DNA of 64,000 nucleotides from Gammaproteobacteria bacterium (GTDB lineage: Bacteria > Pseudomonadota > Gammaproteobacteria > UBA4575): contig JBGCDS010000006.1 in assembly GCA_045105615.1 (NCBI GenBank), positions 3,026 through 67,025 on the forward strand, given 5' to 3'. Each line of letters begins with the position of its first letter. Positions within the stretch are counted from its first letter, which is position 1. Shown here in pieces: positions 31,924-33,873 of this stretch. A model generated the notes under the pieces. That model saw only the letters and a program-made list of their open reading frames with translations, was not told the DNA's origin and did no database searches. The position numbers and the translations under genes are program-made.

Positions 31924-32757
31924 ATGGAGCTCAACCTTGATACAGGACGCCTCATTGTGTTTATTGGCGGCCTGCTAATCTTTGCAATTATTGAATCACT
32001 CTTTGCAAAACGAAGCTGGGATAAGCTGCGTGTAAAAAGGTTTGCGTTCCATGCTGGCGTTGCCGCATTTAATACCGTGCTTATCCGCATGTTTATCTAC
32101 GTCCCCATGTTGCTGTGGATTGTGTATGTCGAAGAAGAAGGCTGGGGTTTATCGCGTTGGTTAGGTTTACATGGCATTACTGAAATTATCATTTCATTAA
32201 TTGTATTGGATGCATTTGATTACTTCTGGCATCGCGCCAATCATCGCGTTGGATTTTTATGGCGCTTCCATAAAGCCCATCATGCCGATACACATATGGA
32301 TGTTTCTACCGCTCTTCGCTTTCACCCGGGCGAATTGATCATCTCATCCTTAGTCAAAGCCACATGGATTGTTATATGGGGCCCAACGGTAATTGCTTGG
32401 TTTGTATTTGAAGCCCTAGTTAGTCTTAGCGCACAGTTTCATCATAGTAACTTCGACTTTCCAAATAAACTCGAAAAAATATTGTCACCGATTGTCGTCA
32501 CGCCACGCTATCATGCATCACACCATGCGGTAGATAGAAACTATGGTGATGCAAACTTTTCAACCATTTTTAGTCTTTGGGATAGGATATTTTTTTCCTA
32601 CCAAAAACCAGCAGTAGGAGGAAGCACCACACTAGCAAAGGACTCTATAGGTTTACCCGAAAATCGCTCACAGGCATTTTCAGTGATAGCCTGGATTACA
32701 GAACCTTTTACCTCGCGTAATTTACACTTAGGCAACCAAGCATCTAACAAATCTTAA
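31924..32757 (+). CDS. fatty acid hydroxylase / sterol desaturase family membrane protein
   Basis: His boxes HRANH, HKAHH, HASHH. Confidence 0.7.
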   Translation: MELNLDTGRLIVFIGGLLIFAIIESLFAKRSWDKLRVKRFAFHAGVAAFNTVLIRMFIYVPMLLWIVYVEEEGWGLSRWLGLHGITEIIISLIVLDAFDYFWHRANHRVGFLWRFHKAHHADTHMDVSTALRFHPGELIISSLVKATWIVIWGPTVIAWFVFEALVSLSAQFHHSNFDFPNKLEKILSPIVVTPRYHASHHAVDRNYGDANFSTIFSLWDRIFFSYQKPAVGGSTTLAKDSIGLPENRSQAFSVIAWITEPFTSRNLHLGNQASNKS

Positions 32758-32789
32758 CGTTAACTCTTAAACCAAAAAGGGGAATACAT

Positions 32790-32936
32790 ATGAAATTTAT
32801 TGCACTTGCATTATTACTCTTACCTTTGTCTTTATTCGCTGGCGAGCACGCTGGCAAGAAAGCTGAACATGCCGGTGAAAAAGCAGAGCATGCGGGTAAA
32901 GAAGCGGAGCACGCAGGCAAAGCCGCTGAAAACTAA
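32790..32936 (+). CDS. unannotated small secreted peptide (48 aa) with 4 tandem A-E-H-A-G-K repeats
   Basis: RBS aaaaagggga 9 nt upstream of the ATG. Signal peptide MKFIALALLLLPLSLFAG. Mature part EHAGKKAEHAGEKAEHAGKEAEHAGKAAEN. Below the 60-aa ORF-track cutoff. Confidence 0.6.
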   Translation: MKFIALALLLLPLSLFAGEHAGKKAEHAGEKAEHAGKEAEHAGKAAEN

Positions 32937-32962
32937 TCTCACTCTGATTTAAAGGTAAATAT

Positions 32963-33436
32963 ATGCGACTCCTCATTCAAATTAATACAAAGATAGTTTT
33001 TATCTTATTAATGCTTTGGGGAGTTTCACCATTTGCTAATGAGGCGAATACGACTGACAACCAACCCGCGAAAAAATATTATGTGCATGACATTAAAAAT
33101 GCCATGAATGATCACATTGCTAAAAGCATCGATGAGAATGGTGTATTTACCATTGAAGATGATAAAACTGGTGAAATCTTATCTTTAAAATTTGTAAAAA
33201 TTCATGACCCCGTACGCGTCATTGATGGCCGCACCTATTTCGCTTGCACTGACTTTCATGTCATCGGTAACAAAAAGAAACTTTATGACCTAGACTTCTG
33301 GATGAGCCCCGTCGACGGTAAACTAAAAATCTTCAAAGCAAAAATTCACAAAGAACCACGGAAATCCTTAATTTACGGCTGGTATAAACAACCACGCTAT
33401 ACCTTTGTTGACGATAAAATCGTAGAGCTTTACTAA
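32963..33436 (+). CDS. secreted hypothetical protein (157 aa)
   Basis: Signal peptide. 26 nt downstream of the repeat peptide and co-directional with it. Confidence 0.55.
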   Translation: MRLLIQINTKIVFILLMLWGVSPFANEANTTDNQPAKKYYVHDIKNAMNDHIAKSIDENGVFTIEDDKTGEILSLKFVKIHDPVRVIDGRTYFACTDFHVIGNKKKLYDLDFWMSPVDGKLKIFKAKIHKEPRKSLIYGWYKQPRYTFVDDKIVELY

Positions 33437-33717
33437 ATCTCTCCCATTCTTTTTCTTTGCTTGCTTTTCAAGCCCCCAAAGCAAGCCCTTGTCGTCGATA
33501 TAAAATGATATCTTTGTTAAGCTCACCTCAAATTATTGGTGGAAAGCGGTCTATCAAATCAATTAAGAATAGTGTTCTTTGAGCGACCAAAATACACTAT
33601 TCATAATACCCATATAATTTCAGAATACCTGTAAAATTAATCCACTCTACTGTTTAGACATTCAAACTCTCCAAATTCAGCGGGAAGAAAATCTTACAAA
33701 GCAATAATAGAGGGGGC

Positions 33718-33873
33718 TTACCCTCGTTGAGTGGGCATGATCAAACTTAGCTGGGACAATCCAGCGTGCCATCCTGGTAACACTCTGGTCAGTTCACCCG
33801 ATTTCAATTCATCACGACATGTGTAGGCAGGCAAAGCCACAATGCCTAACCCGGCAATCGCCGCTTGTTTCAT
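33718..33873 (-). pseudogene. remnant of a LysR-family regulator C-terminus (51 codons)
   Basis: Minus-strand translation MKQAAIAGLGIVALPAYTCRDELKSGELTRVLPGWHAGLSQLSLIMPTQRG* matches the LysR C-terminal consensus (AA.AGLGIA.LP......L..G.L..VLP.W......L..P..R). No RBS and no N-terminal HTH or substrate domain. Confidence 0.5.

What the first reader, a model, noticed from the sequence alone, without database searches (positions are those of the whole stretch)
32790..33436. Unannotated 48-aa secreted peptide with four tandem AEHAGK repeats, plus downstream secreted protein
A short ORF was missed by the 60-aa cutoff. It has a good RBS, a canonical signal peptide, and a mature peptide made almost entirely of the repeat (A)EHAG(K/E). 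It has four evenly spaced His flanked by Glu/Lys. That resembles small periplasmic metal-binding or stress peptides (ZraP, KGG-repeat, YmgD-like), but the repeat itself looks novel. It is followed 26 nt later by a 157-aa secreted protein of unknown family, suggesting a two-gene periplasmic module. It could be metal (Zn/Ni/Cu) buffering.
Basis: seen in the sequence. Interest (0 to 1): 0.55.

Follow-up and report, generated by a model that had tools for sequence, protein, structure and literature searches.

The report
Secreted EHxG histidine-repeat peptide module
The 48-residue reading frame is a real, conserved gene for a small exported histidine-repeat peptide that always travels with (or is fused to) an uncharacterised periplasmic domain and a membrane hydroxylase, most likely as a metal-capturing tail, though no metal binding has been shown.

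Summary
ORF48 (32790-32936, +) encodes a signal peptide plus four AEHAGKx heptads, and ORF157 starts 26 nt later. It is not a chance ORF. All differences between its EHAG codons are synonymous.

- **Conservation:** an equivalent signal-peptide + EH[G/A/P]G-repeat ORF sits directly upstream of every ORF157 homologue with enough upstream DNA (67 loci, low to high GC).
- **Fusion:** in 10 loci labelled Neomarinimicrobiota, Lentisphaeria or Oligoflexia, the repeats are fused in-frame to the ORF157 domain.
- **Third gene:** an FA_hydroxylase-family membrane enzyme lies immediately upstream in 63 loci. A reciprocal scan seeded with that enzyme found the domain gene downstream in 62 of 62 informative loci.
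- **N-terminus:** about 95% of family members have His at position 3 after the predicted cleavage site (NH2-X-X-His, ATCUN-type).
- **Family status:** neither peptide nor domain reaches any Pfam or NCBIfam threshold. The nearest match is a sub-threshold hit to SmbP.
- **Structure:** the domain models confidently as one helix plus an eight-stranded sheet, with no significant PDB match. The repeats model as disordered.

Metal capture, probably Cu(II)/Ni(II), is the best reading but remains inferred. The identical peptide is already annotated at NCBI as a hypothetical protein.

The parts
31924..32757 (+). FA_hydroxylase-family (sterol desaturase-like) integral membrane di-iron enzyme, the first gene of the conserved cluster
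   Evidence: PF04116 at 92.8 bits against a cutoff of 31. All His-box histidines are invariant in a 12-sequence alignment. It lies upstream on the same strand in 63 of the loci seeded with ORF157. In the reciprocal scan seeded with this enzyme, the domain gene followed in 62 of 62 informative loci.
32777..32783 (+). Shine-Dalgarno-like AAGGGGA for ORF48. The 32-nt gap after the hydroxylase stop leaves little room for a separate promoter
   Evidence: Sequence read. The motif is conserved (GAGGGGA) in the 91%-identity relative L002. The promoter scan found nothing in the gap.
32790..32936 (+). ORF48, precursor of the EHxG-repeat peptide (48 aa)
   Evidence: The identical protein is P0269 at NCBI.
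32790..32840 (+). Predicted Sec signal peptide MKFIALALLLLPLSLFA, with cleavage predicted after LFA
   Evidence: Based on the -3/-1 rule applied by regex and by eye; no signal-peptide predictor was run. The same A-x-A|X-X-H arrangement occurs in about 95% of family members.
32841..32924 (+). Four 21-nt units encoding GEHAGKK / AEHAGEK / AEHAGKE / AEHAGKA. The predicted mature N-terminus Gly-Glu-His is an ATCUN-type X-X-His
   Evidence: There is an in-frame 105-nt (5-unit) copy-number difference from L002.
32963..33436 (+). ORF157, an exported protein of an uncharacterised alpha/beta domain family. The signal peptide covers residues 1-25 and the conserved domain residues 40-157 (33080-33433)
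   Evidence: 595 homologues at E<=1e-3, the 120 best listed at 54-91% identity, none with a Pfam domain. 818 clusters at 50% identity at E<=1e-3. AF2 pLDDT is 87.7 overall and about 97 in the core. No PDB match below E 0.027.
33459..33486 (+). Stem-loop (9 bp) after ORF157. It could be a transcript end or stabiliser; it has no T-run
   Evidence: -12.6 kcal/mol, z = -3.3. The consensus scan did not call it a terminator.

Best explanation
ORF48 encodes a Sec-exported, intrinsically disordered 31-residue peptide built from four E-H-A-G-centred heptads. It is the shortest member of a family of EH[G/A/P]G-repeat proteins. These proteins are the detached form of an N-terminal repeat tail that in other phyla is covalently fused to the ORF157-type periplasmic domain.

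Signal-peptide cleavage is predicted to leave NH2-Gly-Glu-His, an ATCUN-type site for Cu(II) or Ni(II). Each further E-H-x-G unit offers an imidazole, a carboxylate and backbone amides as weaker sites.

The most likely role is a periplasmic metal-capturing or buffering tail. It would present metal to, or be read by, the ORF157 domain, which has invariant His81, Cys95, Asp109, Asp111 and His129. The pair acts together with the membrane di-iron FA_hydroxylase-family enzyme encoded 33 nt upstream in the same operon.

Shown here: the gene is real, selection acts on the protein sequence, the three genes are obligately linked, fused and split forms both exist, and the repeats are predicted to be disordered.

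Inferred: metal binding, which metal, any hand-over to the domain, and what the periplasmic pair does for the hydroxylase.
For: - **Co-occurrence.** A repeat ORF lies directly upstream of the domain gene in all 67 split loci with enough upstream DNA, across low- and high-GC genomes.
- **Fusion.** The repeats are fused in-frame to the domain in 10 loci labelled Neomarinimicrobiota, Lentisphaeria or Oligoflexia and in many metagenomic representatives.
- **What is conserved.** Only E-H-[GAP]-G is constant, while the period varies (5, 7, 8 or 10 residues). This fits a short linear motif rather than a folded repeat.
- **Position of the first His.** It sits at +3 of the predicted mature chain in 57 of 60 Sec-type proteins and in 3 of 3 two-motif proteins. 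Several fused forms show the same.
- **Protein-level selection.** All codon differences within the core are synonymous.
- **Weak family similarity.** Sub-threshold similarity to PF16785 SMBP (20.3 and 16.4 bits) and to the prion copper octarepeat (17.5 bits).
- **Fusions of the domain elsewhere.** Metal_resist PF13801 in P0130, at 29.3 bits against a cutoff of 29.2. YHS in the P0138 subfamily, which JGI names 'YHS domain-containing protein', with PF04945 precomputed for some members.
- **Tandem-domain relatives.** They keep one EHPG or EHGG motif in the linker before the second, intact domain.
- **Met-containing repeat variants** such as MEHGG and EHGGKEMK, and poly-His C-terminal tails.
- **Predicted disorder.** In the AF2 model of fused P0131 the repeats have pLDDT 51-58 and no secondary structure, while the domain is about 98.
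- **Precedent.** The disordered N-terminal His-rich tail of CopI binds Cu(II) (PMC13308877).
Against: - No experiment and no significant homology ties either protein to a metal.
- The only conserved neighbour is a lipid-type hydroxylase. By the positive-inside rule (my reading of the sequences), its di-iron site faces the cytoplasm, so the periplasmic pair cannot load it directly.
- No metal-homeostasis gene or regulator is conserved nearby. None is conserved around the tandem-domain or fused relatives either.
- Five hydroxylase + domain loci lack the repeat gene altogether, so the peptide is dispensable in some lineages.
- AF2 gives no confident docking of the repeats on the domain.
- Three family members, including the cultured Congregibacter variabilis, lack the X-X-His N-terminus.
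- Cleavage sites were predicted with the -3/-1 rule only.
Confidence: 0.5

Rival explanations
1. This is a lipid-centred module with no metal role. The ORF157 domain is the periplasmic partner of the membrane hydroxylase, acting as a carrier for substrate or product, or as a regulator or stabiliser. The EHxG repeats are a flexible polyampholyte tether or multivalent docking motif for that domain. The His residues would serve recognition or pH sensing rather than metal binding.
For: - The hydroxylase-domain link is the tightest one seen: 62 of 62 loci in the reciprocal scan and 63 loci in the forward scan.
- Five loci keep hydroxylase + domain but lack the repeat gene.
- The predicted periplasmic segments of the hydroxylase are invariant (N-terminal MxLxLDxG, the EEQGWGISRWLGL loop, the WGP turn). 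That would suit a docking surface.
- The best structural matches, though weak, are NTF2-like or cystatin-like small-molecule binders.
- No metal genes lie nearby.
Against: - The domain with its EHxG tail is widespread without any hydroxylase: the fused form in loci labelled Neomarinimicrobiota, and the soil YHS tandem subfamily.
- Strict conservation of His, and of His at +3 of the mature chain, is hard to explain for a simple tether.
- The domain's invariant residues are polar (His, Cys, Asp), not a hydrophobic pocket signature.
- Fusions to Metal_resist and YHS point to metals.
Confidence: 0.25
2. ORF48 is a precursor that is cut between units into several short X-Glu-His peptides, each with its own ATCUN N-terminus. 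These would be a ribosomal metallophore-like or signalling product. ORF157, with its Cys/His/Asp residues, would be the processing enzyme.
For: - Every unit begins with X-E-H, so cutting before each unit would create multiple ATCUN peptides.
- Copy number is free to vary, for example 4 against 9 motifs between relatives whose ORF157 is 91% identical.
- The domain is unusually strongly conserved for a binding protein and has invariant Cys, His and Asp.
Against: - In many phyla the repeats are covalently fused to the domain, often on a lipoprotein. This argues for a tail that stays attached.
- Spacer length and sequence between motifs are not conserved, so there is no consistent cleavage site.
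- The fold is not that of a known peptidase.
- Some family members have only two motifs far apart.
Confidence: 0.07
3. ORF48 is simply a divergent member of an already described small periplasmic family: SmbP, ZraP/CpxP/Spy, KGG-repeat or YmgD-like.
For: - The window peptide has a heptad period like SmbP.
- Longer homologues give weak PF16785 hits of 16.4 and 20.3 bits.
Against: - All hits are below the gathering cutoff of 29, and the window peptide gives none.
- NCBIfam gives nothing relevant.
- The repeat period is not conserved in the family (5 to 10 residues).
- Gly or Pro inside the motif, together with the AF2 model, predicts disorder rather than a helical protein.
- No hit to Metal_resist/LTXXQ, KGG or YmgD models for ORF48 or ORF157.
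Confidence: 0.05
4. This is a spurious ORF created by a DNA tandem repeat in an intergenic spacer.
For: - The ORF is short (48 aa).
- Overlapping ORFs in other frames and on the opposite strand also appear in the repeat.
Against: - Only this frame is conserved, from low-GC to high-GC genomes, with a signal peptide and EHxG units.
- All core codon differences are synonymous.
- The copy-number difference from L002 is in frame.
- Fusion to the downstream domain occurs in other phyla.
Confidence: 0.01

Closest known systems
[quoted passage not shown] 2004, pmid 15366930, cited in PMC12955753)
   Same: - Small, Sec-exported and periplasmic.
- Many evenly spaced His flanked by Ala, Glu and Lys, with a seven-residue repeat like the window peptide.
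- From my own knowledge, it binds several Cu(II) and other divalent ions.
- It gave the best, though sub-threshold, Pfam hit to long family members.
   Different: - Scores of 16-20 bits are below the cutoff of 29, and the window peptide gives no hit.
- The repeat here has Gly or Pro after His and a variable period (5-10 residues).
- It is predicted to be disordered, whereas SmbP is, from my own knowledge, a folded helical protein.
- It is obligately paired with, or fused to, a second domain and linked to a membrane hydroxylase. I am not aware of either for SmbP.
ATCUN motif (NH2-X-X-His), as in serum albumin and other extracellular peptides
   Same: The predicted mature N-terminus Gly-Glu-His has a free amine, His at position 3 and no Pro at position 2. 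The arrangement is conserved in about 95% of the family.
   Different: Cleavage is predicted, not shown. The motif is followed by several internal E-H-x-G units that are not ATCUN sites. Lipoprotein paralogues and three Sec-type members lack it.
Disordered His-rich (or His/Met-rich) periplasmic copper-binding regions: the CopI N-terminal tail (PMC13308877) and the PcoB N-terminal disordered region (PMC12509749). From my own knowledge, PcoE and SilE belong in the same class
   Same: A disordered His-rich segment attached to, or working with, a folded periplasmic or outer-membrane protein. The CopI tail DAGHDHGSAHAGAHAHDA contains H-A-G and H-x-G units and binds Cu(II) through imidazoles and amide nitrogens. 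Some family members here add Met.
   Different: There is no sequence homology. The partner domain here is not a cupredoxin or a porin. No cop or pco genes lie nearby. The strict E-H-x-G unit and its modular repetition are distinctive.
Prion protein octarepeat PHGGGWGQ (Pfam PF03991)
   Same: The H-G-G unit is repeated in a disordered region. One family member gave a weak hit of 17.5 bits.
   Different: The hit is below the cutoff of 32. There is no Pro before His and no Trp. The context is bacterial and periplasmic. This is an analogy only.
FA_hydroxylase / sterol desaturase family (PF04116), e.g. the ornithine-lipid hydroxylase OlsE. This applies to the upstream gene only
   Same: Clear membership by score and by intact His boxes.
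   Different: Only 54.7 bits against the OlsE equivalog cutoff of 475, so the substrate is unknown. I know of no FA_hydroxylase described with dedicated periplasmic partners.

Membership tests
SmbP (Pfam PF16785) | Score at or above the Pfam gathering cutoff (29 bits) | tested here: not met
   The window peptide gives no hit. Long homologues score 20.3 and 16.4 bits.
SmbP (Pfam PF16785) | Seven-residue His-containing repeat | tested here: inconclusive
   The window peptide has period 7. The family period varies between 5, 7, 8 and 10 residues.
SmbP (Pfam PF16785) | Folded helical protein | tested here: not met
   AF2 of the fused relative P0131 gives pLDDT 51-58 for the repeat region with no helix. 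This is a prediction only.
SmbP (Pfam PF16785) | Binds multiple divalent metal ions | not testable with these tools
   Needs ITC, ESI-MS or EPR on the peptide.
ATCUN motif | Free N-terminal amine, His at position 3, residue 2 not Pro | tested here: met
   Predicted cleavage LFA|GEH in the window. 57 of 60 Sec-type homologues have A-x-A|X-X-H, and so do 3 of 3 two-motif proteins. The cleavage site comes from the -3/-1 rule, not from experiment.
ZraP/CpxP/Spy (PF13801 Metal_resist, PF07813 LTXXQ) | Pfam model match or LTXXQ motifs | tested here: not met
   No hit for ORF48 or ORF157. Only the distant fused relative P0130 carries an N-terminal Metal_resist domain (29.3 bits).
KGG-repeat or YmgD-like stress proteins | Pfam or NCBIfam model match | tested here: not met
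   No such family appears at E<=1.
Prion copper octarepeat (PF03991) | Score at or above the cutoff (32 bits) | tested here: not met
   17.5 bits for the L075 homologue only.
FA_hydroxylase (PF04116), upstream gene | Model match above the cutoff and conserved His boxes (HxxxH, HxxHH, HxxHH) | tested here: met
   92.8 bits against 31. H103, H107, H116, H119, H120, H197, H200 and H201 are invariant in 12 sequences.
OlsE ornithine-lipid hydroxylase (NF052566), upstream gene | Equivalog cutoff of 475 bits | tested here: not met
   54.7 bits.
NTF2-like or cystatin-like fold, ORF157 | Significant structural match to solved members | tested here: inconclusive
Any Pfam-A or NCBIfam family, ORF157 | Model match above the cutoff | tested here: not met
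   No hit above the cutoff for 119 family members, none for the window protein in Pfam or NCBIfam, and no PDB sequence relative.

The most novel reading that the evidence does not exclude
The ORF157 domain may be a previously undescribed, widely distributed periplasmic sensor or receptor domain (at least 818 clusters at 50% identity). It would read the metal-loaded state of EHxG motifs, supplied either in cis (fused tail) or in trans (ORF48-type peptide). In the Gammaproteobacteria it would couple that signal across the membrane to a dedicated di-iron lipid hydroxylase. Periplasmic metal status would then directly control membrane-lipid hydroxylation. This would be a new kind of envelope stress circuit that needs no transcription factor.
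Probability: 0.15. Interest if true: 0.8.

Novelty: new variant of a known kind. Interest (0 to 1): 0.58.

Why it matters
If the reading is right, three things follow.

- It defines a new, widespread family pair, EHxG-repeat tail plus an unnamed alpha/beta domain. The pair is absent from Pfam and NCBIfam and occurs in abundant uncultured marine and freshwater bacteria labelled Gammaproteobacteria, Neomarinimicrobiota, Lentisphaeria and Oligoflexia.
- It offers a clean natural example of a disordered metal-binding tail that evolution has detached into its own mini-gene.
- It links periplasmic metal chemistry to a membrane lipid hydroxylase of unknown substrate.

The peptide is short enough to synthesise, so the central claim can be tested cheaply. 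Even if metals are not involved, the obligate hydroxylase-domain pairing gives a handle on an uncharacterised bacterial FA_hydroxylase subfamily.

Tried and rejected
- **Family scans.** Pfam and NCBIfam scans of ORF48, ORF157, long repeat homologues and 119 domain homologues gave nothing above a cutoff.
- **PDB sequence searches.** A domain profile and a long repeat protein gave only noise, including designed helical repeats and Adhiron.
- **Plasmids.** tblastn of ORF157 and of tandem-domain P0138 against 72,556 plasmids found no match, so the family is not a plasmid-borne metal-resistance item.
- **Promoter footprinting.** Aligning the hydroxylase promoter region across 7 relatives showed conservation only between the window and its 91% relative. 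No Fur-, Zur- or CueR-like box was evident. The consensus promoter and terminator scan was at background.
- **Context of other subfamilies.** Gene context of the tandem YHS subfamily and of several fused forms was variable and uninformative: VWA, DUF3617, a TonB receptor, a PhnD-like ABC system, a BlaI/CopY-family repressor and a trypsin-like protease.
- **Docking.** AF2 of a fused relative, run to see whether an EHxG unit docks on the domain, left the repeats at low confidence.
- **Literature.** String searches for the motif and for a sterol-desaturase/metal link found nothing relevant.
- **Local synteny.** The neighbouring genes (gshA, ate, DUF2322, ampD, groESL, fxsA) were rejected as functional evidence. 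They are housekeeping genes, and no neighbour other than the hydroxylase is conserved beyond about 11 loci.
Full report
**1. Observation**

- ORF48 (32790-32936, +) is MKFIALALLLLPLSLFA|GEHAGKK AEHAGEK AEHAGKE AEHAGKA AEN.
- An AAGGGGA ribosome-binding site lies with 7 nt between its G-run and the ATG.
- The first gene ends at 32757, so only 32 nt separate it from ORF48.
- ORF157 (32963-33436, +) starts 26 nt after the ORF48 stop. It has its own AAAGG site and a signal peptide (…SPFA|NE).
- The window is 41.5% GC.

The repeat is not a chance or slippage artefact.
- EH[GAP]G occurs five times in the whole six-frame translation of the 64 kb, four of them here.
- 17 of 24 pairwise comparisons of the four core codons differ, and every difference is synonymous. 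The Ala codon uses all four GCN codons.
- At the DNA level the array is only 78% self-matching.

The ORFs on other frames and on the opposite strand across the array are by-products of the repeat and are not conserved elsewhere.

The identical 48-aa protein already exists at NCBI as a hypothetical protein on a 112-kb gammaproteobacterial MAG contig.

**2. ORF157 is a strongly conserved, unnamed family**
- The homology search found 595 proteins at E<=1e-3. The 120 best listed are 54-91% identical, all are 'hypothetical', and none has a Pfam domain.
- A profile search of 1.84 billion cluster representatives found 818 clusters at E<=1e-3 and 244 at E<=1e-10.
- Pfam, NCBIfam and PDB sequence searches give nothing above threshold, even when 119 members are scanned individually.
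- Invariant residues across both split and fused forms include H81, P83, R85 (the IHDPVR segment), Y92, F93, C95, F98 (YFACTDF), D109, D111, F112, W113 (YDLDFW), H129, K130 (IHK) and R145.
- AlphaFold2 with 119 sequences gives pLDDT 87.7, about 97 over residues 40-157. The model has one helix (41-55) packed on an eight-stranded antiparallel sheet.

**3. The small ORF is conserved with ORF157**

I fetched 80 genomic loci encoding ORF157 relatives.
- Every split-type locus with enough upstream DNA has, directly upstream on the same strand, a 48-121-aa ORF. It consists of a signal peptide followed by 2 to 12 or more E-H-[G/A/P]-G units (62 loci, 5 more). Four truncated contigs are uninformative.
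- This holds from roughly 40% GC to much more GC-rich genomes. The record titles include Congregibacter, Halieaceae, Oceanococcaceae, Thiotrichales, Pseudomonadales and Ectothiorhodospiraceae MAGs, plus the cultured Congregibacter variabilis IMCC43200.
- Only the E-H-x-G core is constant. Seen here are QEHGG (period 5), AEHAGKx (7, the window), KEHGGEAA (8) and EKKEHAGDAA (10).
- The window peptide is the shortest family member.
- Its closest relative, L002, has an ORF157 that is 91% identical. The two repeat genes differ by a clean in-frame 105-nt indel, giving 4 against 9 motifs.

**4. Fusion evidence**
- In 10 loci labelled Neomarinimicrobiota, Lentisphaeria or Oligoflexia, the repeats are in the same reading frame as the domain, on a lipoprotein: …VWTCSSK…QEHGGQEHGGKEHGG…FTAAEIKGAM…KIHDPVRKIEGKGYFACTDF….
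- Many metagenomic representatives have the same layout, a signal peptide or lipobox, then (EHxG)n, then the domain.
- A soil subfamily with 935 hits, which JGI names 'YHS domain-containing protein', has a YHS-like module followed by two tandem copies of the domain. The linker PWWWIPASEHPG places one EHPG motif before the second, intact copy. The first copy has lost the His and Cys residues.
- The split gene pair in the window is therefore one arrangement of an association that is usually a fusion.

**5. A third partner**
- Clustering all ORFs of the loci showed that only one neighbour is conserved. It is an FA_hydroxylase-family membrane protein, upstream on the same strand in 63 loci and ending 206-731 nt before the domain gene. 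No other neighbour occurs in more than 11 loci.
- In the window this is 31924-32757 (PF04116, 92.8 bits). All His-box histidines are invariant.
- One fused-type metagenomic gene (P0159) also overlaps by 4 nt the end of a hydroxylase that is 51% identical to the window's.
- A reciprocal scan of metagenome contigs seeded with the hydroxylase returned 80 loci. All 62 with enough downstream DNA carry the domain gene. Fifteen more show the repeat ORF before the contig ends, and three are too short.
- Five of the 62 (L107, L153, L156, L161, L164) have hydroxylase followed directly by the domain gene with no repeat ORF. The peptide is therefore an accessory part in a minority of lineages.
- By the positive-inside rule, which is my inference, the His boxes face the cytoplasm. 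The short predicted periplasmic segments (N-terminal MxLxLDxG, the EEQGWGISRWLGL loop, the WGP turn) are invariant.

**6. Clues to what the peptide does**

(a) Position of the first His.
- In 57 of 60 Sec-type repeat proteins the first His lies exactly three residues after an A-x-A-type cleavage site. Examples are A|GEH, A|AEH, A|DEH, A|AGH, A|DGH and G|GGH.
- The same holds for 3 of 3 two-motif proteins and for several fused forms.
- The predicted mature N-terminus is thus NH2-X-X-His, the ATCUN arrangement. Established bioinorganic chemistry shows this binds Cu(II) and Ni(II) tightly.
- The exceptions are L053, L064 and L066.
- Seven further copies carry a lipobox, mostly as second copies (…LVAC|SSDNHEH…), and lack the arrangement.
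- Cleavage sites rest on the -3/-1 rule only.

(b) Weak family similarity. Long homologues give sub-threshold hits to SmbP (20.3 and 16.4 bits against a cutoff of 29) and to the prion copper octarepeat (17.5 against 32).

(c) Sequence variants. Some contain Met (MEHGG, EHGGKEMK, GEMAHGD) or end in poly-His (EEKHHHHDH).

(d) Fusions of the domain elsewhere. One relative carries an N-terminal Metal_resist domain (P0130, 29.3 bits against 29.2). The tandem subfamily carries YHS-like modules, weak in my scan but precomputed as PF04945 for some members.

(e) Predicted disorder. AlphaFold2 of the fused relative P0131 leaves the repeat region at pLDDT 51-58 with no secondary structure, while the domain is about 98. 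There is no confident docking.

(f) Precedent. CopI carries a disordered N-terminal His-rich tail (DAGHDHGSAHAGAHAHDA) that binds Cu(II) through imidazoles and amide nitrogens (PMC13308877). PcoB has a comparable disordered region (PMC12509749).

**7. Best explanation and its limits**

I take ORF48 to be a periplasmic, disordered metal-capturing tail supplied in trans to the ORF157 domain. It would have an ATCUN-type Cu(II)/Ni(II) site at its N-terminus and weaker His/Glu sites at each repeat.

My confidence is about 0.5 for metal binding and lower for copper specifically. Several points count against this reading.
- There is no significant homology to any metalloprotein.
- No metal gene or regulator lies in the window or is conserved in relatives.
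- The hydroxylase's metal site is cytoplasmic.
- Some lineages lack the repeat gene.

The main rival (0.25) is a lipid-centred module. In it the domain partners the hydroxylase, and the repeats are a tether or docking motif. A processed-precursor model (0.07), membership of a known family (0.05) and a spurious ORF (0.01) are less likely, for the reasons given under the rival explanations.

**8. Comparison with known families, and novelty**
- The peptide works most like SmbP and like disordered His-rich periplasmic copper-binding regions. It fails the membership tests for SmbP, ZraP/CpxP, KGG and the prion repeat.
- The ORF157 domain matches no curated family and no solved structure.
- The three-gene arrangement did not turn up in the literature searches I ran.
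- I rate it a new variant of a known kind (periplasmic His-rich metal-binding peptides) attached to an uncharacterised domain family.
- It is of moderate to good interest because the family is widespread, the fused-versus-split evidence is clean, and the key claim can be tested cheaply.

Noticed in passing
window 33718-33873 (-): A 50-aa ORF matches only positions 143-191 of the LysR_substrate domain (PF03466, 32.7 bits). It appears to be a relic of a LysR-type regulator stranded between ORF157 and groEL. The same fragment is called as a gene on an identical Logan contig (L001).
   Followed up: partly
window 32860-32925 compared with L002 4820-4925: The repeat array differs from the closest relative by a clean in-frame 105-nt (five-heptad) indel, 4 against 9 EHAG units, while the flanks are almost identical. 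Copy number is evolutionarily labile.
   Followed up: yes
L004 3156-3386, L011 4447-4653, L012 4429-4626, L018 2579-2812, L019 4427-4624, L022 4500-4694: Some loci (several labelled Thiotrichales) carry two repeat genes between the hydroxylase and the domain gene. The first is a lipoprotein version (…LVAC|SSDNHEHAG…) without the X-X-His N-terminus. The second is the usual Sec version.
   Followed up: partly
L107, L153, L156, L161, L164 (metagenome loci): Here the hydroxylase is followed directly by the domain gene with no EHxG ORF. The domain protein begins …AFA|GEAQRPEEP…, as if a former GEH start had lost its His.
   Followed up: partly
P0124, P0126, P0137, P0138, P0144 and the 935-member subfamily; loci L082-L086: A soil subfamily (Steroidobacteraceae, Hyphomicrobium, Rhodanobacteraceae) has a YHS-like module plus two tandem copies of the domain, joined by a conserved PWWW(I/L)PA(S/Q)EHPG linker. 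The first copy has lost the His and Cys residues. There is no hydroxylase nearby. VWA and DUF3617 genes recur next to it in two loci.
   Followed up: partly
L070-L079, L065, L068: The fused lipoproteins in loci labelled Neomarinimicrobiota or Lentisphaeria carry an extra Cys/His motif (…AE(T/S)C..(T/V)(A/T)C(E/V)NP(E/D)H(K/H)H…) before the QEHGG repeats. In 9 loci they are followed by a roughly 339-aa lipoprotein that I read as transglutaminase-like from its GNCTDFHALF segment; no family search was run on it.
   Followed up: no
P0275, L170 2857-3090, L135 2304-2528, L158: Some repeat proteins end in a short poly-His tail (…EEKHHHHDH, …EEKHHHDH, …KEKHEH), which adds a second kind of His-rich site.
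   Followed up: no
window 31924-32757 and alignment A5: The hydroxylase's predicted periplasmic segments (N-terminal MxLxLDxG, the loop EEQGWGISRWLGL, the WGP turn) are as invariant as its catalytic His boxes. This is unusual for exposed loops and would suit a partner-docking surface.
   Followed up: partly
L023, L027, L039, L041, L029 (record titles): Several MAGs carrying the module are titled 'Klebsiella pneumoniae' or 'Klebsiella sp.', and one (L033) 'Mycobacterium sp.'. The module was not found in the plasmid collection, and Klebsiella genomes were not checked. The taxonomic labels look unreliable.
   Followed up: no
window 33459-33486 (+): A 9-bp stem-loop (GCUUGCUUU…AAAGCAAGC, -12.6 kcal/mol, z = -3.3) lies 22 nt after the ORF157 stop and has no U-run. 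It may mark the 3' end of the operon transcript.
   Followed up: partly
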